Translations under genes and position numbers: made by a program
The notes under the pieces: model-generated
Database searches by the model: none
The model's input: only the letters and a program-made list of their open reading frames with translations
Told to the model about the DNA's origin: nothing
IMG/VR virus record: IMGVR_UViG_3300045988_060455
Coordinates: 1-44,307 of that record
Source: a virus
Reading direction: 5' to 3' (one strand)
Length of the DNA stretch: 44,307 bases
In this document: positions 15,864 through 34,196 of the stretch, one piece after another
Layout: the number at the start of each line of letters is the position of its first letter
Position numbering within the stretch: position 1 is the first letter of the stretch

Positions 15864-15864
15864 C

Positions 15865-16092: not shown

Positions 16093-16304
16093 AAACCACG
16101 ATGCGCGATAAGGTTTGCCAGCTGATTGGCAAGTATCAGTTCTTGGAAGAGGACTTCCGTTCAAAGTCGTTTTTCAAGACCGGGCCGTTTTGCGGCCCGT
16201 ATGGCCAGTCGGAGGAAGCTATAAAAGCGAAGATGTGCGGCCAGTTCTTGGACGATTTGAAAAAGCTGCTGGAAGAGGACGAGGTGAACGGCCATGACGC
16301 TTGA
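16089..16304 (+). CDS. Hypothetical protein
   Basis: ATGA overlap and a GGAGGAG RBS. 71 aa. Confidence 0.6.
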   Translation: MKTTMRDKVCQLIGKYQFLEEDFRSKSFFKTGPFCGPYGQSEEAIKAKMCGQFLDDLKKLLEEDEVNGHDA

Positions 16305-16581
16305 AGACCATATCAGGGCGCTGATCACCCAGTACCAGAAGCTCCAGCAACGCCATCAGTTCCACGCACAGAACGCCTATTACAAGTTCCAGAGCGATAT
16401 GTGGCAGGCTATGGCCGATGATTTTGGCATCATCGTGGAAGACCTGCAGCAGGCGCTCTATTGTGCAGATGATGTGAAGCCACCGGAACGGCCGGAGCCA
16501 AAGAATCCGGAAACCTGGCACAAGCTGAACACCGCCACCGCCAGAAAACTTGTTGGCAAGGAGGTGGCGCACCGTGGCTAA
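16294..16581 (+). CDS. Hypothetical protein
   Basis: 95 aa, overlapping start. Confidence 0.6.
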   Translation: MTLEDHIRALITQYQKLQQRHQFHAQNAYYKFQSDMWQAMADDFGIIVEDLQQALYCADDVKPPERPEPKNPETWHKLNTATARKLVGKEVAHRG

Positions 16582-16903
16582 GGCATTGATGATCGTTGCA
16601 ATCCTCGCTGTGCTGCTGGGCATTTCATGGGGCGTCACATGCGCCGCCGTGTGGGCCATTTGCACGCTGATGGGACGTTCACCTGGGCCACCGGAACGGC
16701 GGCGTGGATTGCGCTTTGTCTCATTGGCAGCTTTGGCAGCTCTAAGAAGTGAGGCGCTGACCATGCCTGCACGGCTGGCACACATCAAAGAAAAGAGGTC
16801 GAAGCATGATGAAGGTCATACAGGGCACTTTCCGGCAGATTCCGTACTGGAAGCTTCGGGGCCGGTTCCACAGCTGCGGCTACCGCGATCAGGAAGTCGC
16901 TAA
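16574..16903 (+). CDS. Small membrane protein; the 3' part of the annotated frame is doubtful
   Basis: GTG 16574 behind AAGGAGG (16558-16564). The TM helix MIVAILAVLLGISWGVTCAAVWAICTL is followed by junk-like sequence. The -1 frame continues ..TFTWATGTAAWIALCLIGSFGSSKK* and ends at 16752. Confidence 0.4.
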   Translation: MAKALMIVAILAVLLGISWGVTCAAVWAICTLMGRSPGPPERRRGLRFVSLAALAALRSEALTMPARLAHIKEKRSKHDEGHTGHFPADSVLEASGPVPQLRLPRSGSR

Positions 16904-17063
16904 GTATATCGGCATTGGCCGGGACACCATGAGCGGCAGGATGCAGGGGCACAACCCGTGGACAAGCACGGAGATCACTGCAATGTGTGAGCTGCTGGGT
17001 ATCCGGCAGAATGAAATCGGGGAGCTGTTCTTCCCTACTGTTGAGAAAGGAGAATCCGCATGA
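16806..17063 (+). CDS. DUF739-like phage HTH protein
   Basis: ..YWKLRGRFHSCGYRDQEVAKYIGIGRDTMSGRMQGHNPWTSTEITAMCELLGIRQNEIGELFFP matches the DUF739 pattern as I recall it. Confidence 0.6.
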   Translation: MMKVIQGTFRQIPYWKLRGRFHSCGYRDQEVAKYIGIGRDTMSGRMQGHNPWTSTEITAMCELLGIRQNEIGELFFPTVEKGESA

Positions 17064-17284
17064 ACGCAAAACTTTACATCGACAGCGAAGCATCTACCAT
17101 CCGAGGCGAAGGCAACTTCACGGAATTGCTTGACTTGCTGGCCTCTGCAACCGCTCAGATTCTGAACGCATATTTCCCCACTAGGGACAACATGCGCCTG
17201 GCATGTGTCGCAGCGCTTACCTACAAGACAATTGATGTCCTTGCTTATACGGAACTTGAAAAGGAGGACACCGATGAAGATTAA
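17060..17284 (+). CDS. Hypothetical protein
   Basis: ATGA-type overlap. 74 aa. Confidence 0.55.
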   Translation: MNAKLYIDSEASTIRGEGNFTELLDLLASATAQILNAYFPTRDNMRLACVAALTYKTIDVLAYTELEKEDTDED

Positions 17285-17534
17285 ATCTGGAGTTTGGTAT
17301 TGGCTGGCAATGGGGAGCTTTGCGACGGGCCTGCTGTACAGCATGGGCCTTGAGGGCACCTGTCAGACCGGCGGCACCGTCTCGGACGGCGCGTTTATTA
17401 CGGCTATAGTGCTGATCCTGCTTGCAATCTTCTTCATGCGGCTGGGCTTTGCAGCCGAAGCACGCGAGAAGCGCTGCCTCAAGATTCACAAGCCGCAGGC
17501 CAATACCGTGAAGAGCGGCAGGAAGGTTGGCTGA
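17274..17534 (+). CDS. Small two-TM membrane protein
   Basis: ATG 17274 behind AAGGAGG. TM helices WYWLAMGSFATGLLYSMGL and AFITAIVLILLAIFFMRLGF. Confidence 0.6.
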   Translation: MKIKSGVWYWLAMGSFATGLLYSMGLEGTCQTGGTVSDGAFITAIVLILLAIFFMRLGFAAEAREKRCLKIHKPQANTVKSGRKVG

Positions 17535-17536
17535 GC

Positions 17537-17872
17537 ATGGCTTCCAGTAACAATATGATCTACACCCGCGTCTGTGTTGACTGCGGAAAGGTGATGCACA
17601 ATGTGGGCCGCCGCGCTGAGCGGTGTCCCGAATGCAAAGCCGTACATTCAAGGGTTAAATCCCTTGAAGCTCACTACCGGGAACGGACGGAACAGCTTCT
17701 TCGTCAGCAGGAAGAGCGGGCCAATGCAATCCATCAGGGTCTTGTGGACGACAACGAGCGCTTTACTGCAAGCGCAGGCACCTATGGTAAAGGCCGCATC
17801 AAAGAGATTATGACCGCACAAAAGAAAAAGCAGCCCGCTGGTGTTGGCGCACCGACAGGCTGCAAGGGTTGA
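17537..17872 (+). CDS. Zinc-ribbon protein
   Basis: CVDCG..17 residues..CPEC, followed by a basic helical tail. Confidence 0.6.
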   Translation: MASSNNMIYTRVCVDCGKVMHNVGRRAERCPECKAVHSRVKSLEAHYRERTEQLLRQQEERANAIHQGLVDDNERFTASAGTYGKGRIKEIMTAQKKKQPAGVGAPTGCKG

Positions 17873-17928
17873 TGGAATTTGAAAGCCCCATCACCCCGAT
17901 GATATCACAAAATCGGAGGTTTTTACAG

Positions 17929-18240
17929 ATGGAAAAAAATTATGTTGAGATTCAGGGCCGCTTTTCGAGCGACGGCAAGTTTATGGACGGCAAGTACGTC
18001 CCCGGCATCGTTGACGAGCTGCTTGACAGCGTTTCGGGTGCATTCAAGGACCCTACCGGTCTGCACCGCCTGCGCGTCACGGTCGAGGTTGAAGATCTGG
18101 GCGCGGATGTCAAGTTCGGAAAGCCTGCAAGCGAAACGCAGCACTCCCCTGCTCCGCAGCATTTGACCGCTGGAAAGCTGATTCCCGCACCGGACGTCTC
18201 CCCTGCCGCTATTGACCCGGCACCGGAGGTGGTAGCGTGA
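17929..18240 (+). CDS. Hypothetical protein
   Basis: The track ORF starts at 17869. ATG 17929 behind GGAGG (17915-17919) is preferred. Confidence 0.55.
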   Translation: MEKNYVEIQGRFSSDGKFMDGKYVPGIVDELLDSVSGAFKDPTGLHRLRVTVEVEDLGADVKFGKPASETQHSPAPQHLTAGKLIPAPDVSPAAIDPAPEVVA

Positions 18241-18245
18241 ACCCG

Positions 18246-18356
18246 ATGTATGATCTCTCCCTTGACGGCTACTGCCCGGCGCTTGAGCCGCCGGACGACT
18301 ACTATTTCCTGCCGCGAGGGGCAGAACAGACCGAAGATCAGGAGGATGAAGAGTAA
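18246..18356 (+). CDS. Small acidic ORF (36 aa)
   Basis: Fills the gap between neighbouring genes. Its stop overlaps the next start (TAATG). MYDLSLDGYCPALEPPDDYYFLPRGAEQTEDQEDEE. Confidence 0.3.
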   Translation: MYDLSLDGYCPALEPPDDYYFLPRGAEQTEDQEDEE

Positions 18357-19006
18357 TGGCTATTTTGGTTATGATCTACGGGCAATCTGGTTCCGGCAAG
18401 TCCACCAGCCTGCGCAATTTTAAGCCAGAACAGGTGAGCGTGGTCAACGTGCTGGGCAAGCCGTTCCCGTTTCGTTTTAACGGTCTCAAGGGTGCCGTTT
18501 CGGATGATTACGGCGCGATCGCAAACCTGCTGTGCAAGACCCCAAAGCAGAGCGTCGTGATTGATGATGCAACCTACCTTATGTCCAATGAGTTTGTTAG
18601 GACGGCAAAGCAGATTGGCTACCAGAAGTTCACCGACATGGCGGCAAACTTCAAGGGCCTTCTCGATCTTGCAAAGAGTCTTCCCAGCAACAAGATCATC
18701 TACATTATGGGCCACATGGAGAGGGACAACGACGGCAACGAGAAGTTCAAGACAATTGGCAAGATGCTGGACGAGAAGATTTGTGTCGAAGGGCTTTTTA
18801 CCATCGTCCTGAAAACGGTAGTGCAGGACGGCAAGTATTATTTTAGCACCCAGAACACCGGCAGCGATGTGAGCAAATCTCCCATTGGGATGTTTGATGC
18901 TCAGCTGATTGACAACGACCTTGCAATGGTTGATAAGACCATTCGCGAATATTACGGCCTGCCTGCAAACGATGCAGCACCCGCCAAGAACAACGAAAAG
19001 GAGTAA
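18356..19006 (+). CDS. P-loop ATPase, Sak4/AAA_24-like recombination protein
   Basis: Walker A motif IYGQSGSGKS and Walker B-like VVIDDATY. It is followed by a DUF669-type SSB, a common pairing. Confidence 0.6.
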   Translation: MAILVMIYGQSGSGKSTSLRNFKPEQVSVVNVLGKPFPFRFNGLKGAVSDDYGAIANLLCKTPKQSVVIDDATYLMSNEFVRTAKQIGYQKFTDMAANFKGLLDLAKSLPSNKIIYIMGHMERDNDGNEKFKTIGKMLDEKICVEGLFTIVLKTVVQDGKYYFSTQNTGSDVSKSPIGMFDAQLIDNDLAMVDKTIREYYGLPANDAAPAKNNEKE

Positions 19007-19012
19007 AAAATC

Positions 19013-19564
19013 ATGAAGAATATCAATTGGAGCGAAGTTCAGGAAGCAACTGATTTCAAGACCCTGCCCGTAGGCGCTTATGTTGCCGGTATCGTAGCCG
19101 CACAGGACGTGCCTGAGAAGGAATACCTCAACATCTACTGGGATATTGCGGAGGGCGAGTTCCGAGGCTATTTCCATGGAATGACAAAGGCTATTCAGGA
19201 ACGTGGCAAGCTGGAATCCGGCCAGTGGGCATGGGGCGGCACCACCAAGAAGTCCTACAAGGAGACCGCTCTGCCGTTCTTCAAGGCATTCCTGACCAGC
19301 GTGGAGCAGTCCAACCCGGGCTACAAGTTCAACAACGATGAAAGGACCCTGCGCGGCAAGCTGGTGGGCATCATCCTCGGGGAGGAAGAGTATCAGGCCA
19401 ATGATGGCAGCATCAAAACCAAATTGGTGGTCAGCAAGTTCACCAGCATTGACAAAATCCGGGATGGCGATTTTGAAATTCCGCCCAAGAAGATGCTGAA
19501 CAGCTCTGCAATTCCGGCGGCATATACTGCGCCCATCAACGACAATGAAGACCTGCTTTTCTGA
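19013..19564 (+). CDS. DUF669-like single-strand DNA-binding protein
   Basis: 183 aa with an acidic C-terminal tail (..INDNEDLLF) typical of SSB partner-binding tips. Confidence 0.55.
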   Translation: MKNINWSEVQEATDFKTLPVGAYVAGIVAAQDVPEKEYLNIYWDIAEGEFRGYFHGMTKAIQERGKLESGQWAWGGTTKKSYKETALPFFKAFLTSVEQSNPGYKFNNDERTLRGKLVGIILGEEEYQANDGSIKTKLVVSKFTSIDKIRDGDFEIPPKKMLNSSAIPAAYTAPINDNEDLLF

Positions 19565-19588
19565 GCGGCAGTAGAAGGAGAGAGAAAA

Positions 19589-20242
19589 ATGCCAGCAACA
19601 AGAAATATTATGCCAGAAGAGGTGCGCAATGCAAAGCTTCTTCTCAGTAAGGGCCTGTCAGATGCAGAGGTCGCAGCTATTATCGGTCGTTCCGTGACAG
19701 CAGTTATCCGTATCAGAAACGGTACATACGACTTCATGCTTGCGGATGTACCGAATGATACCCAGGATGATAGCCGGGTGTGTATCCTGCTGAAATCTAT
19801 CGACAGCCGCCTGTACCAGCAGAACGAGGACATGAAGAAGGCCATTGACCAGCTGGTGGGCCTGAACAGTGCCCTTGTTGAGCTTCAGAACGAGATCAAG
19901 GTGTGCAGCTCCTGCATGACGGCAATGCTGGATGCCCTGAACGACCTCAAGAGCCAGAACAGTCCGCAGGCTGAACCGGAAGCCCCTGCGAACAAGTATC
20001 CGGGCAAGGATTTTGCGAACTGGGGAGAGGTTATTCGCCGTGTTGAGGTCTACGGTGACAAGTTTATTGCGGACAACCTGCGCGGAAACAAGGCCAGTCT
20101 GGACGGCGTTACGCTGTATCTGGCCTGCCACCCCAGCACGAAGAAGTTCCTCAAAAGCAGCGCTGTTGCAATCCCCAGCATTAAACAGCAGTGCCGGAAC
20201 GTTCTCGGCTACGGCGTCGAGGTTAAGATCATTGATCTGTAA
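19589..20242 (+). CDS. HTH-containing replication-module protein
   Basis: N-terminal ..LLSKGLSDAEVAAIIGRSVTAVIRIRNG. The C-terminal domain is unknown. Confidence 0.55.
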   Translation: MPATRNIMPEEVRNAKLLLSKGLSDAEVAAIIGRSVTAVIRIRNGTYDFMLADVPNDTQDDSRVCILLKSIDSRLYQQNEDMKKAIDQLVGLNSALVELQNEIKVCSSCMTAMLDALNDLKSQNSPQAEPEAPANKYPGKDFANWGEVIRRVEVYGDKFIADNLRGNKASLDGVTLYLACHPSTKKFLKSSAVAIPSIKQQCRNVLGYGVEVKIIDL

Positions 20243-20250
20243 AAACCCAA

Positions 20251-20288
20251 GAAAACCCATCGGTTTTTTTAAAAACCATTGGGTTTTC
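20251..20288. repeat. Inverted-repeat pair related to the iterons (putative ori element)
   Basis: gaaaacccatcggttttt and aaaaaccattgggttttc, each a palindrome around AAACC-n-GGTTT. Confidence 0.6.
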
Positions 20289-20313
20289 AAAAGCGGGAAG
20301 GAGGTGGTTTGTA

Positions 20314-21015
20314 GTGGACAACATCGAAATGGCTCGCCCGAAAGGCTTGTTGATACCCTTTGACAAGTTCGTAATCTTGGACATCCTTCCACCTGATAAG
20401 TATAAGTATGTAATCTCAACGCTTATGCGGAAGTATGTAGAGCACGGCGACGAACCCGAGGAGCTTGAAGACCTTGAGAAGATGGCATTTGAGTCTTTAA
20501 GAAGTTCAATGGATACAAACATTGAAACGTACAGACGTTCTATTTTGGCAAACAGGAAAAACGGACGAAAAGGCGGCAGGCCCAGAAAAGCCACTGAAAC
20601 CGACGGGATTGCAGAAGAACCCACAGAAACCCATGGGTTTTCCGAGAAACCCACCAAAACCGATGGGGGGTTAAAGTACAAAGTACAAAGTACAACAGAT
20701 ACTAAAGTATCTGATAGTAGTAGCGCTGAAGCGCTGCCCCCTACAACCAAGAACAGGTTTTCACCGCCGGATGTTGAAACGGTGAAAAGTTACTTTGCGG
20801 AGAAGGGCGGAACGGAAGGGCAGGCTATTCGGTTCTATGCCTATTACGAATCCAACGGCTGGAAGGTGGGCCGGAATCCTATGAAGAACTGGAAGGCAGC
20901 AGCATCCGGGTGGATATCCCGTGACAGTGAGCAGCAACCAAACAAGCCTGCACCGGGCAATACATCCAGATCTGCAGCGGATGTCTATGCAGACATCTTC
21001 AAGGGGGTGATTTGA
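20314..21015 (+). CDS. Replisome organizer / DnaD-like initiator
   Basis: GTG 20314 behind GGAAGGAGG. The N-terminal domain is followed by a central repeat (E/K)PT(E/K)T(D/H)G. The C-terminal ..YFAEKGGTEGQAIRFYAYYESNGWKVGRNPMKNWKAAASGWISR is a DnaD-like motif. Confidence 0.6.
   Translation: MDNIEMARPKGLLIPFDKFVILDILPPDKYKYVISTLMRKYVEHGDEPEELEDLEKMAFESLRSSMDTNIETYRRSILANRKNGRKGGRPRKATETDGIAEEPTETHGFSEKPTKTDGGLKYKVQSTTDTKVSDSSSAEALPPTTKNRFSPPDVETVKSYFAEKGGTEGQAIRFYAYYESNGWKVGRNPMKNWKAAASGWISRDSEQQPNKPAPGNTSRSAADVYADIFKGVI
20595..20694 (+). repeat. Iterons inside the initiator gene plus a 3x AAGTACA tandem
   Basis: The units are tgaaaccgacggg, gaagaacccaca, gaaacccatgggttttc, gagaaacccacc and aaaaccgatgggg, followed by aagtacaaagtacaaagtaca. 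Confidence 0.6.
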
Positions 21016-21336
21016 TTGACGATGGAGAAGATCATCGAACTGCTGGCCGTGGCAGATGGCTATTTCAGCAAGCCCCAAACAGACGAGAGCCGGAAGGCGA
21101 TTTCCAAGGTCTGGGCAAAGTCAGACCTTCGGACGGCCCCGGATGATATCGCAGAACAGGCGTTTTACGATGTCATACAGCACTGCAAGTGGCAGGAAAA
21201 GCTGCTTCCTGAATGGCTGGAGCGGATTCAGAAGATTCAGGGAGAGCGGCTCATGACAGAGCGTTGCCTGCATTCACACCGTAAGTTGCAGAAGATGCTG
21301 AAAGCCCGCGCAGAGCGGAAGCTTTTGAAAGAATAG
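21016..21336 (+). CDS. Hypothetical protein
   Basis: Starts at TTG 21016 or ATG 21022. 106 aa. Confidence 0.55.
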   Translation: MTMEKIIELLAVADGYFSKPQTDESRKAISKVWAKSDLRTAPDDIAEQAFYDVIQHCKWQEKLLPEWLERIQKIQGERLMTERCLHSHRKLQKMLKARAERKLLKE

Positions 21337-21346
21337 CCCGCATATG

Positions 21347-21456
21347 GCGTTCAGAGCGTCCTGCGCGGCTCCCTGAACGCGGTTTTAGGGCAAACCGGCA
21401 AGTTATACTACAAAGCGCAAAACGCCGTTCAGGGCCATTTCTCGCGTTCTGAACGC
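21347..21456. repeat. Two hairpins built from GCGTTCAG / CTGAACGC arms
   Basis: gcgttcag (21347-21354) pairs with ctgaacgc (21373-21380). ccgttcag (21425-21432) pairs with ctgaacg (21449-21455). The palindrome gcgttctgaacgc is at 21444-21456. Confidence 0.55.
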
Positions 21457-21474
21457 ATGGAGGTAAAAAGTACT

Positions 21475-21939
21475 ATGAACCTGTATGAGATCAACTCGCA
21501 GATTTTGGACTGCATCGATCAGGAGACCGGCGAAGTTATGGACATCGACCGGCTGGAAGAGCTGAACATGGCAAAGGCCGAGAAGGTGGACAACATCGCC
21601 TGTTGGGTAAAGAACCTCGAAGCTGATGTTGTGGCCTTTGAAGCACAGGAAAAGGCTTTTGCTGACCGCAAGGCAGCCGCAAAGCGCAAGATCGACAGTC
21701 TCAAGCACTATCTGACCGATGCTCTGGGCGGGCAGAACTTCAGCAGCGACCGGTGCGCGGTGAGCTTTCGCCGCAGCAAGGCGGTCAGCGTGCTGGATGA
21801 AGCCGCTGTCCCTGCCGAGTACATGACCGAGAAGACCACCCGCACACCCAACAAGACGGCCATTGCGGCCCTGCTCAAGACCGGCACGGCAGTGCCCGGC
21901 TGTGAGCTGGTGGAACGTGTAAACCCGTCTGTGAAGTGA
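21475..21939 (+). CDS. Siphovirus Gp157-family protein
   Basis: MNLYEINSQILDCIDQETGEV..AKAEKVDNIACWVKNLEADVVAFEAQEKAFADRKAAAKRKIDSLKHYL follows the typical Gp157 pattern. Confidence 0.65.
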   Translation: MNLYEINSQILDCIDQETGEVMDIDRLEELNMAKAEKVDNIACWVKNLEADVVAFEAQEKAFADRKAAAKRKIDSLKHYLTDALGGQNFSSDRCAVSFRRSKAVSVLDEAAVPAEYMTEKTTRTPNKTAIAALLKTGTAVPGCELVERVNPSVK

Positions 21940-21953
21940 GGGAGGATGGGACG

Positions 21954-22424
21954 ATGGATGAAGTTAGACTGATTGACGCGAACGCTTTGCACAAGCGCAT
22001 CGAAATGAACCTTCGTGCAAGCAATCCGTTCACTATTGAAGAATGCTGCTATAAGGATGCCCTGAACAGCGTGGACGACGCTCCCACCATTGACCCGGAA
22101 ACACTGCAGCCGACATGGCGAAACCCTGAAACGGACCCGCCCAAGGTCGAAACCGAAGTGCTGATTTTGTACCGCAACAATATTGACGGATACAGTATTA
22201 CGACAGCGCACTATGAAGACGGGAGCGTTTTTTCACAAGATAGCGTATGGTATTGGGAATATCTTTCCGATTGGGGGACATACGACGAGGAGCGGGACGA
22301 CTACAAAATCCCGAAAGGCTGGTGGGAATACCGCCATTTCAACCAGGACGACGTTTACAACAACAAGATAGACCGCCCCGTGGTAGGCTGGATGCCGCTG
22401 CCGCCGGAGGAGATTACAAAATGA
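21954..22424 (+). CDS. DUF551-domain protein
   Basis: ATG 21954 behind GGGAGGA. The C-terminus ..RPVVGWMPLPPEE is the DUF551 hallmark. Confidence 0.65.
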   Translation: MDEVRLIDANALHKRIEMNLRASNPFTIEECCYKDALNSVDDAPTIDPETLQPTWRNPETDPPKVETEVLILYRNNIDGYSITTAHYEDGSVFSQDSVWYWEYLSDWGTYDEERDDYKIPKGWWEYRHFNQDDVYNNKIDRPVVGWMPLPPEEITK

Positions 22425-22705
22425 GCGAAAAACGTATGGTCTACGCGGAGGACGTGATCCAGAGAATCCGCGACCTAGCCCCGGAAATCCTGGGCGGCTG
22501 GTATAACCCAGACATGGAGAACGAGTTGGAACAGCTTGTTTGCATTGTTGAAAGCACTCCGACGGCAGCAGATACGGATGTCCAGCGCTGGCGCAAAACG
22601 GCAGAATGTCCGCCGACAGAGGCTGATGCAAACGATTATGGAATGGTGCTGGCCGTTGCAGCCGGATATATTGGAACTCGGTATCATAAAAGTGTGGAAA
22701 CATGA
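22421..22705 (+). CDS. DUF551-like paralog terminated by an in-frame TGA
   Basis: 94 aa up to TGA 22703. The same frame continues PFDTVALLPREFPIWMPLPKLPEEKRS* to 22789, which contains the DUF551 C-terminal motif. Confidence 0.6.
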   Translation: MSEKRMVYAEDVIQRIRDLAPEILGGWYNPDMENELEQLVCIVESTPTAADTDVQRWRKTAECPPTEADANDYGMVLAVAAGYIGTRYHKSVET

Positions 22706-22785
22706 CCTTTTGATACTGTTGCACTACTTCCGAGAGAATTCCCCATTTGGATGCCGCTGCCTAAACTTCCGGAGGAAAAACGCTC

Positions 22786-22977
22786 ATGACATTAGGATTT
22801 GCGATGTTCGCCGCAACGTTTATGGTTGCTGTTGTTGCAGCTATTATTGCAGTCTGCTATGCGCTTGTCTGGCTGCTGTACGATCACCCCATAGCTCTTG
22901 CAGCAACTACCGCTTTTATGATTTGGATGCTTGCTGTGGCTCTGATCTACAAAGCAGGTAATGGCACAGCATTATAA
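22786..22977 (+). CDS. Small two-TM membrane protein
   Basis: GGAGGA RBS. 63 aa, almost entirely hydrophobic. Confidence 0.6.
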   Translation: MTLGFAMFAATFMVAVVAAIIAVCYALVWLLYDHPIALAATTAFMIWMLAVALIYKAGNGTAL

Positions 22978-23140
22978 AATCGACTGCGGCAAGGCGGACG
23001 ACCGGAAGGAACTGGCCGTTATTCTGGTGATGAATGGCTACACCGTCCGCATGGGCAAGGAAAAGCGCAGTAACAAATCTACTTTGACCTATTTTGTGGA
23101 GTATTGGAGGCCCGAAGATGAGCGAGAAAATGAGCACTGA
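22961..23140 (+). CDS. Small hypothetical protein (59 aa, below the track cutoff)
   Basis: MAQHYKIDCGKADDRKELAVILVMNGYTVRMGKEKRSNKSTLTYFVEYW.. looks like a compact alpha/beta protein. Confidence 0.45.
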   Translation: MAQHYKIDCGKADDRKELAVILVMNGYTVRMGKEKRSNKSTLTYFVEYWRPEDERENEH

Positions 23141-23396
23141 ACGCGCGGCAGAGATCCTCAACCCGGCGCACCGCGGGAGTTACGAGAGTATGGAGCCAGT
23201 GAACGAGGCTTGCAGGATGGGCCGGGCTGCTCTCCTGCTGAAGATTCCTCGCAGCCCCTTCCCGGATGGCGACAAGAGTATTCTGGCTTGCCCCAACTGC
23301 GGCAGCGGTGAATACCTGCACAACATCGACACGGCCCGGAACGTGTTCTGCGGCCAGTGTGGACAGGCTATCAAGTGGGAGGACGACGATGAATGA
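23118..23396 (+). CDS. Zinc-ribbon protein
   Basis: ATG 23118 behind GGAGG. CPNCG..CGQCG. Confidence 0.6.
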   Translation: MSEKMSTERAAEILNPAHRGSYESMEPVNEACRMGRAALLLKIPRSPFPDGDKSILACPNCGSGEYLHNIDTARNVFCGQCGQAIKWEDDDE

Positions 23397-23583
23397 TCAA
23401 GCGAAATCCAACCCTGAAACCGACACTATGAGTCCGGAGGAAATGGCCCGTTATTTGATGGGGTTTTGCCGTTGCTATTTGGCGACAGGAAATGGTTGCC
23501 CAGGTTGCCCGTTCGATAAGCCGACCAGTAACGATGGCGATGGAGAATGCCGTCTCGGTGTTCCTTCCGACTGGGACTTTTGA
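23389..23583 (+). CDS. Small Cys-rich protein
   Basis: MNDQAK..FCRCYLATGNGCPGCPF..GECRLG. 64 aa. Confidence 0.5.
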   Translation: MNDQAKSNPETDTMSPEEMARYLMGFCRCYLATGNGCPGCPFDKPTSNDGDGECRLGVPSDWDF

Positions 23584-23599
23584 GGAGGAGAAGTGAAGC

Positions 23600-23932
23600 A
23601 TGAAAACCGAAAAGAGAATGATCTGCTTTATCGTGTCAGCAGCATTGCTGATTGTGACGCTGTGGTTTACATCCTGCGGTGCGGCCACTGCCGAGGCAGG
23701 AGCTGAAAGAAAGCCATGCTACCATGTCACGGTCTATTCTCCTGGCATTGTAGATGGATCATACGCAGCCCGGCGGTATCCGAAGTATACCATCACCGTG
23801 GACACTTTTGAAGATCTGGTTCCCACAGATATTTATAGCCGTGAAAGAGATTACCAACTTCTTCAAATCCCTCTTGGAGATGGCCGCTTTGAGTTGGTGT
23901 CCACCTCGCTGGTGGAAATCGAGTATTACTGA
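23600..23932 (+). CDS. Secreted protein or possible lipoprotein
   Basis: Signal-like MICFIVSAALLIVTLWFTSCG, with an imperfect lipobox. Confidence 0.6.
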   Translation: MKTEKRMICFIVSAALLIVTLWFTSCGAATAEAGAERKPCYHVTVYSPGIVDGSYAARRYPKYTITVDTFEDLVPTDIYSRERDYQLLQIPLGDGRFELVSTSLVEIEYY

Positions 23933-23948
23933 AGGGAGAGACGTGAGC

Positions 23949-24533
23949 ATGAAAGCTGTTTTGCTGAGCATTCGGCCCAACTGGTGCAAGAAAATCGCAA
24001 ACCTGCGGAAGACGGTTGAAATTCGCAAAACTGCGCCAAACCTTGAAGTGCCGTTCAAATGCTACATCTACTGCACAAAAGCTCCAAAGAAACTCATTAC
24101 GATTTTCAGAGATGGCGAAGAATCGTATGATGGAGAAATCTATCACGGAAAGACCAAGTTTATCACATGGGATGGCATTGGTGTGCCAGATGATATAGAC
24201 AGCGCCATGCAGATGGTTATTGGCGAGTTCGTCTGCGATAACATCCGACGCATTGGACCTGAATACTGTGTCGTCAAAGAAGATATCGAATCTGCAATTT
24301 CTGGAAGCTGTCTCACAGTACCGCAAGTCAAAGACTATGCCGGATGGAAGTCCGGGATGAGTTATGCAGATTTGAAAGACTTGTATGGCTGGCACATTTC
24401 CGACCTGAAAATTTACGACCGCCCACGACCGTTAAGTGATTTCACAAGACTGCGGGCAACAAAATTTGGCTATGAGTCTGTAGAGATTCAGCGTCCGCCT
24501 CAAAGCTGGTACTACGTGGAGGACGGCAGATGA
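23949..24533 (+). CDS. ASCH (PUA-like) domain protein
   Basis: MKAVLLSIRPNWCKKIANLRKTVEIRK.. is a typical ASCH N-terminus. Confidence 0.65.
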   Translation: MKAVLLSIRPNWCKKIANLRKTVEIRKTAPNLEVPFKCYIYCTKAPKKLITIFRDGEESYDGEIYHGKTKFITWDGIGVPDDIDSAMQMVIGEFVCDNIRRIGPEYCVVKEDIESAISGSCLTVPQVKDYAGWKSGMSYADLKDLYGWHISDLKIYDRPRPLSDFTRLRATKFGYESVEIQRPPQSWYYVEDGR

Positions 24534-24907
24534 AATTAACCCTCTACGGCGATCCGCACACCAAGAAAAACTCTGCCCGCATTCTCCGCACGCGCTCTGG
24601 CACCCCATTTGTGGCCCCCAGCAAGGCATACGTGGATTATGAGACGGACTGCCTGCGGCAAATCAAAAGGCCGCGCAGCCCCATCTCTGCCCGCGTGAAC
24701 GTGAGGTGCGTGTACTACATGAAGACCGCCCGCCGGGTCGATCTGGCAAACCTCATCGAGGCTACAACGGACATTCTGGTAAAAGCCCGCGTGCTGGAAG
24801 ACGACAACAGCAAGATCGTCGTCGCCCACGATGGCAGCAGGGTGAAGCTTGACCGGAAGAACCCCCGGGCGGAAATTGAGATTGAAGAAATGGAGGTATA
24901 TACATGA
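24530..24907 (+). CDS. rusA: RusA-family Holliday junction resolvase
   Basis: ..YGDPHTKKNS..DLANLIEATTDILVKARVLEDDNSKIV.. follows the RusA pattern. 125 aa. Confidence 0.8.
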   Translation: MKLTLYGDPHTKKNSARILRTRSGTPFVAPSKAYVDYETDCLRQIKRPRSPISARVNVRCVYYMKTARRVDLANLIEATTDILVKARVLEDDNSKIVVAHDGSRVKLDRKNPRAEIEIEEMEVYT

Positions 24908-25077: not shown

Positions 25078-25510
25078 CACCGACACGCCGAGGCCGGACG
25101 GAAACGATTACCTCACCGTTAAGGCGTGGCTGAACCGCTACCGCGAAGCAGAGAAAAGATACTACTTGCTGTCTGACCGTCTGGCCGAAGCACAGGAGGC
25201 CACCCGGCACATCACCCAGAGCCTCAGCGCGGCCCCCGGCGGCAGCAAAGATGGCCAGAGCCTTGCCCGGGCGGTGGAACGCGAGGAGGAAGCGGAGCGC
25301 CGCGCTTATGAGCAAAGAGCGGTCTGCGACAGGCTGTTCCTCGAGATCAGAAACGCGCTCTCCCAGATCCAGAACGAGAAAGCATACACGGTGCTGTACA
25401 AGTACTATCTTGATTGCCTCACGTGGGACAGGGTCGCAAAAGATATGAATTACTCTCTGCGCATGGTCTATGTCTTGCGGCGCAAAGCAATGGAGGAACT
25501 GAGCCTTTAA
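25055..25510 (+). CDS. Late-gene transcriptional activator (sigma-70 region-4-like, RinA/ArpU class)
   Basis: ATG 25055 behind GAGGAGG. C-terminal ..AYTVLYKYYLDCLTWDRVAKDMNYSLRMVYVLRRKAMEEL. It is the last gene before the packaging module. Confidence 0.65.
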   Translation: MTRTWIPDTDTPRPDGNDYLTVKAWLNRYREAEKRYYLLSDRLAEAQEATRHITQSLSAAPGGSKDGQSLARAVEREEEAERRAYEQRAVCDRLFLEIRNALSQIQNEKAYTVLYKYYLDCLTWDRVAKDMNYSLRMVYVLRRKAMEELSL

Positions 25511-25694
25511 AAAAATTGCACTGTCATTACATTGCGGTTTCACTATCGCATGGTGTAAAATTGTATCATCGGAAAAGCCAAAAGGCAAACCGATGCACGC
25601 AGCCTCCGAAACGTGTCCCTTCTTAGCATTTTCCTCCTTTTCTGTTTGCAGGTACTGGGCTTTGCTCTCTTTTCGCGTTTCGCGCTGCTTCTAT

Positions 25695-25768
25695 GCGATA
25701 CACTGACATAAAGGCAGCCTGCCGCTCATGAGAGGAAGGAGACGGTTCGATTCCGCCGTATCGCACCA
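25695..25768 (+). ncRNA. tRNA-shaped module A (non-canonical)
   Basis: A perfect 7-bp acceptor (gcgatac/gtatcgc), T arm gacgg-TTCGATT-ccgcc and an encoded ACCA. The D arm lacks GG. No 5-bp anticodon stem can be drawn around ..gCTCATGa.. Confidence 0.5.
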
Positions 25769-25770
25769 TA

Positions 25771-25882
25771 TGGCGCATGGACCAGACAACCCGAAAGGCC
25801 GCACGTGCAACCTCCCGTGCCAAGAAAAGGCCTTAGAATCCTTGCCAAGGTGTAGCTTTCCTGACAGGATGTGCGCCAACCA
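25771..25882 (+). ncRNA. Structured module B closed by an acceptor-like helix plus ACCA
   Basis: tggcgca (25771-25777) pairs with tgcgcca (25872-25878), followed by A and CCA. The interior has nested helices: aaggcc/ggcctt enclosing gcacg/cgtgc, plus atcct/aggat. Confidence 0.4.
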
Positions 25883-25883
25883 A

Positions 25884-25913
25884 CAGCCCCGGCGGCGAAC
25901 CGGAGCTGTTTTT
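25884..25913 (+). terminator. Hairpin plus T-run inside the RNA locus
   Basis: cagccccgg / ccggagctg (8 of 9 bp) followed by ttttt, immediately before module C. Confidence 0.45.
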
Positions 25914-25917
25914 ATAT

Positions 25918-25988
25918 GGCCGCCTGAGCGCAGTTTGGAGCGCGGCGCGTGTGTGTAGACATGGCTGGTTCGATTCCAAGGGCGGCTC
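25918..25988 (+). ncRNA. tRNA-shaped module C (non-canonical)
   Basis: Acceptor ggccgcc/ggcggct (one G-U pair), D arm gcgc-AGTTTGGA-gcgc and a TTCGATT loop with only a 3-bp stem. The anticodon region gcgcgtgtgtgtagaca does not pair. Confidence 0.4.
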
Positions 25989-25992
25989 TTAT

Positions 25993-26065
25993 ACTCCAGT
26001 AGCTCAAGTGGTAGAGCAGCGGTCTCCAAAACCGCATGTTGCAGGTTCGAGTCCTGCCGGGAGTG
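25993..26065 (+). tRNA. tRNA-Trp (anticodon CCA)
   Basis: A 73-nt cloverleaf: acceptor actccag/cgggagt (one A-G mismatch), D arm gctc-AAGTGGTA-gagc, anticodon arm gcggt-CTCCAAA-accgc, T arm gcagg-TTCGAGT-cctgc. Confidence 0.8.
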
Positions 26066-26187
26066 CTTGCGTGCCCTATGAGGGAGCGGCGCAATAGCGG
26101 GGCATCCGGCCGCGAAAGTTCCGGGTGCAGCAGCGCCCACCGTTTGACGCCTGTCCAACGAACTGAATGCACGGGCGCTGCTTATAT

Positions 26188-26323
26188 GCCGTCATAGCTC
26201 AACTGGAAGAGCGCCGCCCATTTAAGGCGGGACAACGTTGGTGACACCACGGGAACATCACTGCACAGCCAACCACTGCGCACATCCATTCCGTGGGTGC
26301 CGGTTCGAATCCGGTTGGCGGCT
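26188..26323 (+). tRNA. tRNA-Lys(UUU)-like with A33 and a 68-nt variable-region insertion
   Basis: Acceptor gccgtca/tggcggc, D arm gctc-AACTGGAA-gagc, anticodon arm ccgcc-CATTTAA-ggcgg, a 68-nt insert (26231-26298) with the ccacgg/ccgtgg helix, then T arm gccgg-TTCGAAT-ccggt. Confidence 0.55.
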
Positions 26324-26336
26324 AGCGTGATTTTAG

Positions 26337-26358
26337 AGTGTCCACAGTGGACACTTTT
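26337..26358 (+). promoter_or_regulatory. Perfect inverted repeat plus T-run
   Basis: agtgtccac-a-gtggacact followed by ttt. It is either a terminator of the RNA array or a protein-binding site. Confidence 0.45.
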
Positions 26359-26375
26359 GGAGAGGAGGCATACAA

Positions 26376-26603
26376 ATGTTTGAGCGCTTGAAAGAACTGA
26401 TTTGCGACATGGCAAAGTTTTTGACGCGTCTCGGCGCTGGCCTTATCCTCTCAGCCTTACCGATCAGCAACAAAGAAAGCCACTTTGTGCGCTATGCACG
26501 GAGTTTCGGTTTCCGTGCAGACCACACAAAACGCGAGCCTCGGGCAGAGATCGGAGGCCGTGGCTGTATCCAAGGAGCACGGCCTGCTATCCGTGCGGAT
26601 TAA
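26376..26603 (+). CDS. Doubtful small ORF inside the RNA-rich region
   Basis: Strong RBS (GGAGAGGAGG) and ATG. Only the first ~30 aa look protein-like, and the DNA is full of hairpins: gcacgga/tccgtgc, ggccgtg/cacggcc, atccg/cggat. Confidence 0.3.
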   Translation: MFERLKELICDMAKFLTRLGAGLILSALPISNKESHFVRYARSFGFRADHTKREPRAEIGGRGCIQGARPAIRAD

Positions 26604-26625
26604 CCGCTGCTGATACAATACAATT

Positions 26626-26677
26626 AAAAACCAGCTTTTTGCATGATGAGCTCCATGCAGCAAAGCTGGTTTTTCTT
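26626..26677 (+). terminator. Long hairpin terminator preceding tRNA-CAT
   Basis: accagcttt/aaagctggt and tgcatg/catgca stack into one stem, followed by ttttt. Confidence 0.7.
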
Positions 26678-26679
26678 AT

Positions 26680-26753
26680 GCCGCTTTAGCTCAGTCGGCC
26701 AGAGCATCCGGCTCATAACCGGACGTGTGCAGGTTCGAGCCCTGCAAGCGGCA
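26680..26753 (+). tRNA. tRNA with CAT anticodon (Met elongator or Ile2-lysidine type)
   Basis: A 74-nt canonical cloverleaf: gccgctt / D arm gctc-AGTCGGCCA-gagc / tccgg-CTCATAA-ccgga / gcagg-TTCGAGC-cctgc / aagcggc-a. The G1-C72 pair argues against an initiator. Confidence 0.85.
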
Positions 26754-26823
26754 CATTCGATATTTTGACCGTTCGGATTTCCGGGCGGTTTTTCTTTTGC
26801 GTGAGTTTAGAGAGGTGGTGGCG

Positions 26824-27291
26824 GTGAGCGCGAAGCGGCTGACAGACAGACAAAAAAAGAAGATCATTGCTGACTATGTGCAGCTGCAGAGCTACGCCAG
26901 AACCGCAAAGCTGAACGACGTGGCAGAAAGCACCGTGCGGAAAATCGTGAAAGATAATCCCAAGTGCGCGGATTTGTGCGCCTTAAAAAAAGAGCAGAAC
27001 ACGCAGGACATGCTTTCCTACTTAGGAAGCAAGCGCGGGGAAGCACAGGATCTTCTCGGGCTGTACCTTCAGGCGATGGCAGACCCTGACAAGATCGCAG
27101 AGGCAACGCTGCCACAGCTGTCTACGGCGTTCGGCACCATCGTGGATAAGTTTGTTATGCTGGGAGACCAGAGCGGCATAGAAGCCCCGGACGATGGCCT
27201 GCTTGAGGCTCTGAGCGCTGCCGCAGACATCAGCCCGCCGGATGACGTGGAGATGCTGCCGGAGGAAGAGGACGACCATGCGGAAAAGTAA
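26824..27291 (+). CDS. terS: Terminase small subunit
   Basis: GTG 26824 behind GAGAGGTGG; the upstream part of the track ORF overlaps the tRNA. N-terminal HTH-like ..RQKKKIIADYVQLQSYARTAKLNDVAESTVRKIV and an acidic C-terminus. It overlaps terL. Confidence 0.7.
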   Translation: MSAKRLTDRQKKKIIADYVQLQSYARTAKLNDVAESTVRKIVKDNPKCADLCALKKEQNTQDMLSYLGSKRGEAQDLLGLYLQAMADPDKIAEATLPQLSTAFGTIVDKFVMLGDQSGIEAPDDGLLEALSAAADISPPDDVEMLPEEEDDHAEK

Positions 27292-34120: not shown

Positions 34121-34196
34121 GCCGCTTTCGCACAACTGGCAGTGCTCCCGGCTCATAACCGGGTAGTTGCAGGTTCGACCCCTGCAAGCGGCACCA
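34121..34196 (+). tRNA. Second tRNA with CAT anticodon (CCA encoded)
   Basis: gccgctt / D arm gcac-AACTGGCA-gtgc / cccgg-CTCATAA-ccggg / gcagg-TTCGACC-cctgc / aagcggc-a-cca. The acceptor stem and T stem match those of 26680-26753; the D arm and anticodon stem differ. Confidence 0.8.

What the first reader, a model, noticed from the sequence alone, without database searches (positions are those of the whole stretch)
25511..26823. 1.3-kb protein-poor, hairpin-dense RNA locus upstream of terminase: an array of tRNA-shaped modules, possibly a large ornate ncRNA
I find no ORF with convincing protein character between the late-regulator stop (25510) and the terS start (26824). The locus holds two canonical tRNAs: Trp at 25993-26065 and CAT at 26680-26753. 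It also holds four non-canonical modules, each starting right after a TAT/TTATAT motif and closed by a 7-bp acceptor-like helix. Module A (25695-25768) has a perfect acceptor, a GGTTCGATTCC T-loop and an encoded ACCA, but no foldable anticodon stem. Module B (25771-25882) has a closing helix plus A and CCA, and its interior is nested hairpins. Module C (25918-25988) has an acceptor, a textbook D arm and a TTCGATT loop, but no anticodon stem. Module E is at 26188-26323. The spacers and 26400-26620 are also GC-rich hairpins. Large phage-borne RNAs such as GOLLD and ROOL are known to sit in prophages next to or around tRNAs. The context here fits, but I cannot test their consensus by eye.
Basis: partly seen in the sequence, partly recalled or inferred. 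Interest (0 to 1): 0.8.

Follow-up and report, generated by a model that had tools for sequence, protein, structure and literature searches.

The report
Phage array of tRNAs and tRNA mimics
The gap before the terminase genes of this gut phage holds three real tRNA genes, several conserved tRNA-like and pseudoknotted small RNAs and one small protein gene, not one giant RNA, and the odd RNAs match no described family.

Summary
The observation largely holds. 25511-26823 lies between a DUF1492 late-regulator gene and terS and is almost free of genes. The exception is a conserved 75-aa ORF (26376-26603), which explains the "hairpins" at 26400-26620.

The GOLLD/ROOL idea fails. No Rfam family other than tRNA matches, even at E<=10.

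More than 180 related gut-phage contigs carry the same pieces in different combinations and orders. The locus is therefore a mosaic array of separate modules, several of them followed by terminator-like hairpins.
- **Canonical tRNAs:** Trp(CCA) and CAU.
- **Module E:** scores as a tRNA, but has an invariant A33, a UUU or GUU anticodon, a Thr-like body and a covariation-supported extra arm of 65-85 nt.
- **Modules A and C:** keep acceptor, T-arm and D-arm features but have no 7-nt anticodon loop. They fail tRNA models, yet their T-arm motifs are exact in about 98% of independently found relatives.
- **Module B:** a three-way junction with an invariant AACCUCC loop.
- **"Spacer" D:** always follows tRNA-Trp. 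It is a well-supported H-type pseudoknot RNA (13 of 31 pairs show compensatory changes).

Function is inferred, not shown. The most likely reading is RNase P/Z-processed small RNAs that support or protect translation during infection. I file it as a new variant of phage tRNA clusters.

The parts
25531..25562 (+). Possible sigma-A-type promoter (TTGCGG, 18 nt, TAAAAT) at the start of the conserved 'lead' segment
   Evidence: Read by eye. A -10-like TAAAAT is kept in two lead types and replaced by a similar A/T-rich hexamer in a third. The consensus scan did not call it, so this is inferred.
25599..25688 (+). Long leader hairpin (GCAGCCUCCGAAACGUG paired with CGCGUUUCGCGCUGC) enclosing a CU-rich stretch, UUUUCCUCCUUUU, at 25629-25641. 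It ends 6 nt before module A.
   Evidence: RNAalifold on 45 distinct lead sequences. One pair changes C-G to U-A and several change on one side only. The lead has low diversity (pi 0.039). Fold z-score is -2.3.
25695..25768 (+). Module A, a tRNA-like RNA: 7-bp acceptor, 3-bp D-like stem, 6-bp stem with a 10-nt loop (G-CUCAUGA-GA), canonical T arm. It is not a tRNA-model hit.
   Evidence: 95.9% of cells paired, but the sequences are 97% identical, so covariation is inconclusive. The 21-nt T-arm motif is exact in 115 of 116 loci that were found through module C. pi is 0.033. No plus-strand tRNA hit at E<=10.
25771..25882 (+). Module B, a three-way-junction RNA closed by an 8-bp helix. Its hairpin loop carries an invariant AACCUCC (25809-25815), which resembles the anti-Shine-Dalgarno sequence.
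   Evidence: Types B1 and B2 fold to the same architecture with compensatory differences: AAGGCC/GGCCUU versus AAAGCU/AGCUUU, and AUCCU/AGGAU versus AUCCC/GGGAU. No Rfam match.
25883..25917 (+). Terminator-like hairpin plus U tract between modules B and C
   Evidence: Terminator scan. Conserved, pi 0.049.
25918..25988 (+). Module C, a tRNA-like RNA: 7-bp acceptor, canonical D arm (GCGC/GCGC with a GG loop), T loop on a 3-bp stem. A short hairpin with a 4-9-nt loop replaces the anticodon arm.
   Evidence: 96.2% of cells paired, and changes in the acceptor and D stems almost all preserve pairing through G-U. Loop length varies and the hairpin is swapped for another in some relatives. The 23-nt motif is exact in 115 of 117 loci found through module A. 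The only Rfam hit is tRNA-Sec at 17.6 bits, E=2.8.
25993..26065 (+). tRNA-Trp (anticodon CCA), canonical
   Evidence: ARAGORN. Rfam tRNA, 63.4 bits.
26066..26187 (+). Module D, the trailer RNA of tRNA-Trp. Hairpin 1 is 26067-26094. The H-type pseudoknot pairs 26095-26100 with loop bases 26110-15 of hairpin 2 (26102-26109 paired with 26121-26128). Hairpin 3 is terminator-like (26129-26182, then UAUAU).
   Evidence: 87 distinct sequences: 31 pairs, 95.5% paired, 13 pairs with changes on both sides, 0 of 500 shuffles as good, and slid controls 31-51% paired. D always follows tRNA-Trp, and hairpin 3 comes in at least three forms. Model R1 finds one copy per related locus. No Rfam match.
26188..26323 (+). 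Module E, a tRNA with an extra arm of about 65 nt in the variable region (26231-26298). The anticodon loop CAUUUAA (26219-26225) has A33.
   Evidence: Rfam tRNA, 44.1 bits. Types E1, E2 and E3 all score 44-50 bits. In 35 sequences 98.8% of cells are paired and 6 pairs change on both sides, including pairs in the base of the extra arm. A33, U35, U36, A37 and A38 are invariant. The body is closest to phage tRNA-Thr genes.
26334..26362 (+). Hairpin (GUGUCCAC/GUGGACAC) followed by UUUU, just upstream of the ORF75 ribosome-binding site
   Evidence: Fold z-score -3.1. It travels with the ORF75 cassette in relatives.
26376..26603 (+). ORF75, a small protein gene of unknown function with a hydrophobic N-terminal half and ribosome-binding site GGAGAGGAGG at 26361-26370
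   Evidence: No Pfam domain.
26626..26679 (+). Terminator-like hairpin with a U tract after ORF75
   Evidence: perfect 20-bp hairpin. It travels with the cassette.
26680..26753 (+). tRNA with anticodon CAU (Met or Ile2 type). G1-C72 is paired, so it is not an initiator.
   Evidence: ARAGORN. Rfam, 70.1 bits.
26767..26800 (+). Intrinsic-terminator-like hairpin with a U tract, about 25 nt upstream of the terS start codon
   Evidence: Terminator scan. Present in 134 related loci as 'pre_terS'.

Best explanation
**What the locus is (shown).** It is a mosaic, phage-borne cluster of small-RNA genes built around tRNAs. It is not one large RNA.
- It holds two canonical tRNAs, Trp-CCA and CAU.
- It holds one non-canonical tRNA, E. 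E has a Thr-like body, a UUU or GUU anticodon, an invariant A33 and a structured extra arm of 65-85 nt.
- It holds two tRNA mimics, A and C, that keep the acceptor, T arm and elbow but have no 7-nt anticodon loop.
- It holds a three-way-junction RNA, B, with an exposed anti-Shine-Dalgarno-like loop.
- It holds a pseudoknotted trailer RNA, D, always fused behind tRNA-Trp.
- It holds one small protein gene, ORF75.
- The RNA modules are non-coding, conserved and exchanged as cassettes in more than 180 related gut-phage contigs. The host is probably Faecalibacterium or a related member of the Oscillospiraceae.

**How it is made (inferred).**
- Transcription starts in the conserved 'lead' segment just after the late-regulator gene.
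- It runs through leaky terminators.
- RNase P cuts after the UAU that precedes every module, and RNase Z or exonucleases trim the 3' ends. This releases a set of stable small RNAs.

**What it does (inferred, least certain).**
- The RNAs keep translation going in the infected or lysogenic cell.
- The true tRNAs would replace host tRNAs that are depleted by tRNA-targeting defences.
- The altered tRNA and the mimics would escape, or act as decoys for, tRNA-binding nucleases and enzymes.
For: **Anatomy.** tRNA calls and Rfam scores. Folds.

**Independent modules.**
- 191 loci carry the pieces in dozens of different subsets and orders, for example with or without E, with or without ORF75-Met, and E-C-Trp-D.
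- The base after the 3' acceptor strand of C and E changes with whatever lies downstream, so cassette junctions sit exactly at module ends.

**Structure under selection.**
- D: 13 of 31 pairs change on both sides, 95.5% paired, 0 of 500 shuffles as good.
- E: 6 pairs change on both sides, including extra-arm pairs; 98.8% paired.
- B: the two sequence types share one architecture.
- C: almost only pair-preserving changes.

**Purifying selection.**
- Nucleotide diversity of the modules is 0.03-0.12. Third codon positions of the flanking genes are at 0.11-0.26.
- The T-arm motifs of A and C are exact in about 98% of loci ascertained through the other module.

**Not coding.** Region length varies by amounts that are not multiples of three, no frame is conserved, and gene callers leave the interval empty.

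**Processing and transcription.** UAU precedes all six modules. Hairpin-plus-U-tract elements are present.

**Function.**
- Trp and Met are single-codon amino acids, so codon-usage compensation cannot explain those tRNAs.
- UUU(Lys) and GUU(Asn) are among the tRNAs cleaved by the PARIS effector AriB, and phage T5 escapes through its own variant tRNAs (PMC12409363).
- Phage tRNAs with altered anticodon loops have been proposed to evade anticodon nucleases (PMC10264068, PMC11555353).
Against: - There are no expression or processing data. The promoter is read by eye and was not called by the consensus scan.
- A is 97% identical across relatives, so its fold has almost no covariation support.
- The swapped hairpin in C and the B1/B2 differences may each be a single replacement event.
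- All relatives are closely related, so the shuffle statistics overstate independence.
- A33 would be expected to impair decoding, and the amino-acid identity of E is ambiguous, so E may not work as a tRNA at all.
- Several strong terminator-like hairpins lie between the putative promoter and the distal modules.
- No tRNA-targeting defence is known for the presumed host, and no partner protein was found.
Confidence: 0.6

Rival explanations
1. The region is a cis-acting leader of the late operon. D and the lead hairpin would be regulatory RNA, for example a put-like processive antiterminator, an attenuator, or a 5' stabiliser left after tRNA processing. They would control read-through of the terminators into terS and terL, and the tRNAs would merely be lodged in the leader.
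For: - A strong terminator-like hairpin sits about 25 nt before terS, with no room for a promoter after it.
- In most relatives D is the last or second-to-last module before that terminator, and D ends in a terminator-like hairpin.
- Hairpin 1 of D starts 1-3 nt after the tRNA-Trp 3' end, the position expected for a 5' stabiliser.
- 'Lead' follows the late-regulator gene directly and is highly conserved.
Against: - In some relatives a methyltransferase gene, not terS, follows the terminator.
- D is tied to tRNA-Trp and not to the downstream gene.
- No alternative antiterminator pairing was found by eye.
- This idea does not explain A, B, C or E.
Confidence: 0.15
2. A, B, C and the odd features of E are decaying tRNA pseudogenes and junk spacers. 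They hitch-hike with the functional tRNA-Trp and tRNA-CAU genes and have no function of their own.
For: - A and C fail tRNA models.
- The window's copy of A has extra mismatches in the T stem and the anticodon-like stem.
- The encoded CCA ends are not conserved.
- Modules are often lost.
- All relatives are recent, so conservation could partly reflect shared ancestry.
Against: - Module diversity is below the synonymous-site diversity of flanking genes.
- The T-arm motifs are about 98% exact under cross-ascertainment.
- Changes in the stems of C are nearly all pair-preserving.
- B, D and the extra arm of E show compensatory changes.
- Three different E extra arms keep the same base helix and an AACCA loop motif.
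Confidence: 0.12
3. One reading: the whole 1.3 kb is one large ornate non-coding RNA of the GOLLD or ROOL kind that embeds tRNAs.
For: The location is in a phage next to tRNAs, the interval is long and protein-poor, and it holds many conserved helices.
Against: - No GOLLD or ROOL hit, even at E<=10.
- The modules are gained, lost and reordered independently.
- There are internal terminators and a protein gene.
- No long-range helices join the modules.
Confidence: 0.03

Closest known systems
Phage tRNA gene clusters that also encode stable tRNA-like RNAs of unknown function (the phage T4 tRNA region with 'species 1 and 2' RNAs, rnaC and rnaD). Cited from my own knowledge, not checked here.
   Same: Tightly packed tRNA genes are co-transcribed with extra small RNAs that have acceptor-like closing helices and are presumably released by RNase P.
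   Different: - A different phage and host group: a temperate gut phage of Clostridia.
- No sequence or Rfam relationship.
- This array adds anticodon-less mimics, a tRNA with a 65-85-nt extra arm and a pseudoknotted trailer.
- It is shuffled as cassettes.
Counter-defence phage tRNAs: T5 tRNA-Lys, tRNA-Thr and tRNA-Asn against PARIS AriB, phage tRNA-Tyr against the retron effector PtuAB, and anticodon-loop variants (PMC12409363, PMC11555353, PMC10264068)
   Same: - Phage-encoded tRNAs that codon usage cannot explain.
- E carries a Lys(UUU) or Asn(GUU) anticodon on a Thr-like body. Those are the three AriB target identities.
- E has a changed anticodon loop.
   Different: - No experiment, and no known defence system in the presumed host.
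- The change here is A33, plus a huge extra arm, which has not been described for those tRNAs.
- A and C lack an anticodon altogether.
Non-canonical cloverleaf tRNAs (allo-tRNAs with 8/4 or 9/3 acceptor/T-stem arrangements, PMC5389517)
   Same: - They are found in metagenomes, including Clostridia.
- They depart from the 7/5 acceptor/T-stem rule. C is predicted with 7 bp plus 3 bp.
- They have long variable arms, as E does.
   Different: - Allo-tRNAs keep a normal 7-nt anticodon loop and a 12-bp acceptor branch. C has neither.
- The extra arm of E is several times longer than any class II variable arm.
GOLLD and ROOL large RNAs (Rfam)
   Same: Phage or prophage location, sometimes next to tRNAs.
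   Different: No covariance-model match, and the locus is modular instead of a single large fold.
tRNA-spacer-derived small RNAs (such as the 3'ETS-leuZ sponge in E. coli) and tRNA-mimicking Y RNA-like YrlA. Cited from my own knowledge. Only a sub-threshold YrlA hit was seen, on the tRNA-Trp T arm.
   Same: - D is a structured RNA directly behind a tRNA and ends in a terminator-like hairpin, as a trailer-derived small RNA would.
- A and C mimic the tRNA elbow, as YrlA does.
   Different: No sequence or model similarity, no Ro or Rsr gene seen, and the function is untested.

Membership tests
tRNA (Rfam RF00005) | Covariance-model score at or above the gathering score (29 bits) | tested here: met
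   Trp 63.4 bits, CAU 70.1, E 44.1. E2 and E3 types score 44-50. This applies only to these three modules.
tRNA (Rfam RF00005), modules A and C | Covariance-model score at or above the gathering score; a 7-nt anticodon loop on a 5-bp stem | tested here: not met
   A has no plus-strand tRNA hit at E<=10. C has only tRNA-Sec at 17.6 bits, E=2.8. The loop of A is 10 nt, and the loop of C is 4-9 nt and varies.
Canonical decoding tRNA, module E | U33 in the anticodon loop and a variable region of at most about 20 nt | tested here: not met
   A33 is invariant in 35 diverse sequences. The variable region is about 65-85 nt. No short-arm relative with this loop exists in IMG/VR.
GOLLD / ROOL | Match to the Rfam covariance model | tested here: not met
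   No hit at the gathering threshold over the whole window, nor at E<=10 over 25400-26950.
tmRNA | tRNA-like domain plus tag reading frame, as detected by ARAGORN or Rfam | tested here: not met
   ARAGORN finds no tmRNA. There is no Rfam hit.
Group I / group II introns, self-cleaving ribozymes, T-box | Match to the Rfam covariance models | tested here: not met
   No hit at E<=10.
allo-tRNA (8/4 or 9/3) | 12-bp acceptor branch, normal anticodon arm, long variable arm | tested here: not met
   C is predicted with 7 bp plus 3 bp and has no 7-nt anticodon loop or variable arm.
Intrinsic terminator | GC-rich hairpin followed by a U tract | tested here: met
   26767-26790 and 25891-25910 were called by the scan. 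26626-26679, 26334-26362 and hairpin 3 of D were read from the sequence. Function was not tested.
Counter-defence phage tRNA | Rescues phage growth when a host tRNA is cleaved, and resists the nuclease | not testable with these tools
   Only circumstantial: single-codon tRNAs, a Lys or Asn anticodon and an altered loop (PMC12409363).
Protein-coding gene (ORF75, 26376-26603) | Conserved frame, third-position bias, ribosome-binding site | tested here: met
   228 nt in all 27 loci. Variable columns by codon position are 6/9/19. It belongs to a 355-member cluster.

The most novel reading that the evidence does not exclude
The array is an RNA-based toolkit of tRNA mimics.
- A and C would be anticodon-less, L-shaped RNAs.
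- E would be a Thr-bodied tRNA with a Lys or Asn anticodon, A33 and a large structured extra arm.
- D would be a pseudoknotted trailer RNA.

These would act as decoys or inhibitors of tRNA-targeting immune nucleases, or of other tRNA-binding enzymes, and would not decode. That would be a new class of phage anti-defence RNA, exchanged as cassettes among gut phages.
Probability: 0.2. Interest if true: 0.85.

Novelty: new variant of a known kind. Interest (0 to 1): 0.62.

Why it matters
- Phage tRNAs have recently been recognised as weapons against tRNA-cleaving bacterial immunity. This locus goes beyond ordinary tRNAs. It holds conserved RNAs that keep only the parts of a tRNA that enzymes recognise, and a tRNA with a universal base changed (A33) and a very large extra arm.
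- If these RNAs are made and stable, they would show that phages evolve tRNA-derived RNAs for purposes other than decoding.
- At least two motifs, the Trp-trailer pseudoknot (D) and the extra-arm tRNA (E), have enough comparative support to be described as new RNA families.
Material for testing is therefore easy to obtain.

Tried and rejected
- **One large RNA (GOLLD, ROOL), tmRNA, introns, ribozymes, T-box.** No Rfam or ARAGORN support.
- **A conserved ORF across A to Trp on either strand.** Rejected. The 155-aa minus-strand ORF is open in only 10 of 23 distinct relatives, and region length varies by amounts that are not multiples of three.
- **Minus-strand 28-aa ORF (25543-25629) behind an AAGGAGG.** The shared bases are read in different frames in different lead types, so it was rejected (by eye).
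- **E relatives with U33.** The pattern was too generic and returned unrelated tRNAs. E relatives with a short variable arm: none.
- **Exact C motif in GTDB species genomes.** None, so the host is inferred only from terL similarity to a Faecalibacterium MAG (67%).
- **Known isolate phages.** Only unannotated fecal contigs match.
- **Exact look-up of terL.** Not on record.
- **Official pair count for B.** MAFFT misplaces one strand by one column between the B1 and B2 types, so I compared separate consensus folds instead.
- **Targets complementary to the invariant AACUGAAUG of D, or to the loops of B and E, within the phage.** Nothing specific.
- **D in distant terL relatives.** None.
- **Catalogue of 10,006 viral structured-RNA candidates (PMC10690425).** It may already list some of these modules, but its supplementary tables are not held.
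- **Encoded CCA as a meaningful feature.** Not conserved.
Full report
**Setting**

The window is a temperate tailed-phage genome. Upstream of the finding lie an integrase, an antirepressor, RusA and a DUF1492 (ArpU-like) late regulator that ends at 25510. Downstream lie terS (26824), the large terminase and an SPP1-type portal. No isolate phage resembles it. The nearest large-terminase relatives in species genomes are in a Faecalibacterium MAG (67% identity), then Lachnospira and Oscillospiraceae. A Faecalibacterium-like host is therefore an inference.

**What the tools find in 25511-26823**

- ARAGORN and Rfam agree on tRNA-Trp(CCA) at 25993-26065 and tRNA(CAU) at 26680-26753.
- Rfam also scores 26188-26323 (module E) as a tRNA, at 44.1 bits against a gathering score of 29. 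About 65 nt are inserted in the variable region.
- A permissive scan of 25400-26950 (E<=10) gives nothing for GOLLD, ROOL, tmRNA, introns, ribozymes or T-box. Module C reaches only 17.6 bits on tRNA-Sec (E=2.8), and module A has no plus-strand hit.
- Folding energies are only modestly better than shuffles (z from -0.5 to -2.3). Thermodynamics alone would not carry the finding.

**One real gene**

26376-26603 is a 75-codon ORF behind GGAGAGGAGG.
- It is exactly 228 nt in all 27 relatives that carry it.
- Its variable columns fall 6/9/19 by codon position.
- Its product sits in a 355-member cluster of hypothetical Caudoviricetes proteins seen on hundreds of contigs.
- It is bracketed by hairpin-plus-U elements (26334-26362 and 26626-26679).

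The rest of the interval has no conserved frame, and gene callers leave it empty in related contigs.

**A large family, and a mosaic**

- Mapping the window's pieces onto 191 loci shows many architectures. Examples are lead-A-B-C-Trp-D-terS, the same with E, the same with E-ORF75-Met (the window's type, 6 loci), E-C-Trp-D, and C-ORF75-Met-Trp-D.
- A always travels with B. D always follows tRNA-Trp.
- The base after the 3' acceptor strand of C and E changes with the downstream neighbour. Cassette junctions therefore lie exactly at module ends.
- This modularity, the internal terminator-like hairpins and the lack of long-range pairings argue against a single large RNA.

**Module D (26066-26187)**

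This "spacer" is the best-supported structure in the locus.
- Across 87 distinct sequences, four helices (31 pairs) are 95.5% paired.
- 13 pairs show changes on both sides (146 cells). No shuffle out of 500 does as well, and partners slid by 1-3 columns pair only 31-51%.
- One helix is an H-type pseudoknot. UAGCGG (26095-26100) pairs with CCGCGA in the loop of hairpin 2, with U-A to A-U changes (11 sequences) and G-C to C-G changes (10 sequences).
- Hairpin 3 occurs in at least three unrelated forms. All start right after hairpin 2 and end in UUAUUUUGA or UUAUAU, so they look like terminators.
- A covariance model of D finds one copy per related locus and none in more distant terminase relatives.

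**Module E**

- It has a standard acceptor, D arm, anticodon stem and T arm. Compensatory changes occur in the acceptor stem (C-G to U-A) and the T stem (U-A to C-G, 12 of 35 sequences).
- The extra arm comes in three versions: E1 in the window, E2, and a longer E3 in the Faecalibacterium MAG. They share a base helix (CAC, a bulged G, then a stem) that covaries (C-G to A-U and A-U to U-A). They also share a distal hairpin whose loop always contains AACCA. All three versions pass the tRNA threshold.
- The anticodon loop is CAUUUAA, or GAGUUAA in some E2 copies. That is a Lys-type UUU or an Asn-type GUU anticodon. A33, U35, U36, A37 and A38 are invariant, where almost all tRNAs have U33 (my knowledge).
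- With the extra arm removed, the body is most similar to annotated phage tRNA-Thr genes (76-78%).
- No short-arm relative with this loop exists in IMG/VR.

**Modules A and C**

- C has a 7-bp acceptor, a textbook D arm and a TΨC-type loop on a 3-bp stem. The anticodon arm is replaced by a small hairpin whose loop is 4, 5, 6 or 9 nt, and the hairpin is swapped wholesale in one subgroup. Changes in its acceptor and D stems are almost all G-C to G-U or C-G to U-G.
- A has a 7-bp acceptor, a 3-bp D-like stem, a 6-bp stem (one C-G to U-A covariation) with a 10-nt loop containing CUCAUGA, CUCACGA or CUCAUAA, and a perfect T arm in most relatives. The window's copy has two extra mismatches.
- A is 97% identical across relatives, so covariation is uninformative for it.
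- Conservation is the stronger argument. In loci found through A's motif, C's 23-mer is exact in 115 of 117. In loci found through C's motif, A's 21-mer is exact in 115 of 116. Third codon positions of the flanking regulator, terS and terL have diversities of 0.11, 0.26 and 0.19.

**Module B and the lead**

- B exists as two sequence types that fold to the same three-way junction. Compensatory differences lie in P2 (two pairs) and P3 (two pairs), and the closing helix varies among G-C, G-U and A-U. The hairpin loop always reads ..AACCUCC.
- The 184-nt lead is the second most conserved piece (pi 0.039). It has a promoter-like TTGCGG-18-TAAAAT and a long hairpin that encloses UUUUCCUCCUUUU (by eye).
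- Both CU-rich motifs resemble the anti-Shine-Dalgarno sequence. Whether they bind ribosome-binding sites is untested, and I found no specific target.

**How it probably works**

- *Shown:* a conserved, non-coding, modular set of structured RNAs built around tRNAs.
- *Inferred:*
  - Transcription starts from the lead.
  - RNase P cleaves after the UAU that precedes every module. A U at -1 is the preferred context (my knowledge).
  - The 3' ends are trimmed.
  - D is released as a trailer-derived RNA that begins with a hairpin and ends with a terminator.
- *Function* is the weakest link.
  - Trp and Met have one codon each, so codon-usage compensation does not apply.
  - Lys(UUU), Asn(GUU) and Thr(UGU) tRNAs are the targets of the PARIS nuclease AriB, and phage T5 escapes with variant tRNAs (PMC12409363).
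  - Anticodon-loop variants have been proposed as a general escape route (PMC10264068, PMC11555353).
  - I therefore favour a translation-protecting, counter-defence role, with A, C and perhaps E acting as escape variants or decoys.
  - I put about 0.85 on the structural description and about 0.3 on this function.
- *The main rival* is that D, the lead and the terminators regulate read-through into the late operon. The terminator 25 nt before terS leaves no room for a promoter, which keeps that rival alive.

**Comparison with what is known, and novelty**

The closest known arrangement is a phage tRNA cluster that also encodes stable tRNA-like RNAs, as in phage T4 (my knowledge). These items match nothing in Rfam 15:
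- the anticodon-less mimics A and C;
- the A33 tRNA with its extra arm (E);
- the Trp-trailer pseudoknot (D);
- the three-way junction with an anti-SD-like loop (B).

A 2023 catalogue of viral structured-RNA candidates might list some of them, but I could not check it. I file the locus as a new variant of a known kind.

**Limits**

- All relatives are closely related, so counts of cells are not counts of events.
- A and C were ascertained by exact motifs. Cross-ascertainment mitigates this.
- Promoter, processing, stability, charging and function are all untested.

Noticed in passing
window 5411-5474 (+): Strong Rfam hit to DUF3800-VIII RNA (80.3 bits against a gathering score of 40.2), a candidate structured RNA of unknown function.
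   Followed up: no
window 14489-14711 (-): Rfam hit to FuFi-1 RNA (68.3 bits against a gathering score of 59.6), just upstream of the antirepressor gene region.
   Followed up: no
window 34121-34196 (+): A third tRNA (anticodon CAU) sits alone among the structural genes. It is a paralogue of the 26680 tRNA, with the same acceptor and anticodon arm but a different D arm.
   Followed up: partly
window 26376-26603 (+): A small conserved protein gene (75 aa, hydrophobic N-terminal half, no Pfam domain). It moves as a cassette together with the CAU tRNA and its own flanking terminator-like hairpins.
   Followed up: yes
window 25629-25641 and 25809-25815 (+): Two invariant CU-rich motifs that resemble the anti-Shine-Dalgarno sequence: UUUUCCUCCUUUU inside the leader hairpin, and AACCUCC in the loop of module B. 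No specific target was found.
   Followed up: partly
window 26239-26242 and 26273-26276 (+); also L191 2082-2234: A UGGU in the linker 5' of E's extra arm is complementary to the ACCA kept in the distal loop of all three extra-arm types. This could be a tertiary or pseudoknot contact, but both sides are invariant, so covariation cannot test it.
   Followed up: partly
L191 and L192 (contig CAKTGQ010000006.1, ranges 15326-24603 and 54046-63323): The same prophage-like segment, with C-Trp-D-E3, appears twice about 39 kb apart on one Faecalibacterium MAG contig. This is either a tandem prophage or an assembly repeat.
   Followed up: no
L191 2295-3509; L332 5894-7075: In some relatives a DNA methyltransferase gene is inserted between the RNA array's final terminator and terS.
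   Followed up: no
window 2015-4210 (+): A 731-aa protein with collagen triple-helix repeats.
   Followed up: no
window 25993-26065, and one search hits: The phage tRNA-Trp is 81-87% identical to the single tRNA-Trp genes of many cluster-A-type mycobacteriophages. This probably reflects general tRNA-Trp conservation.
   Followed up: no
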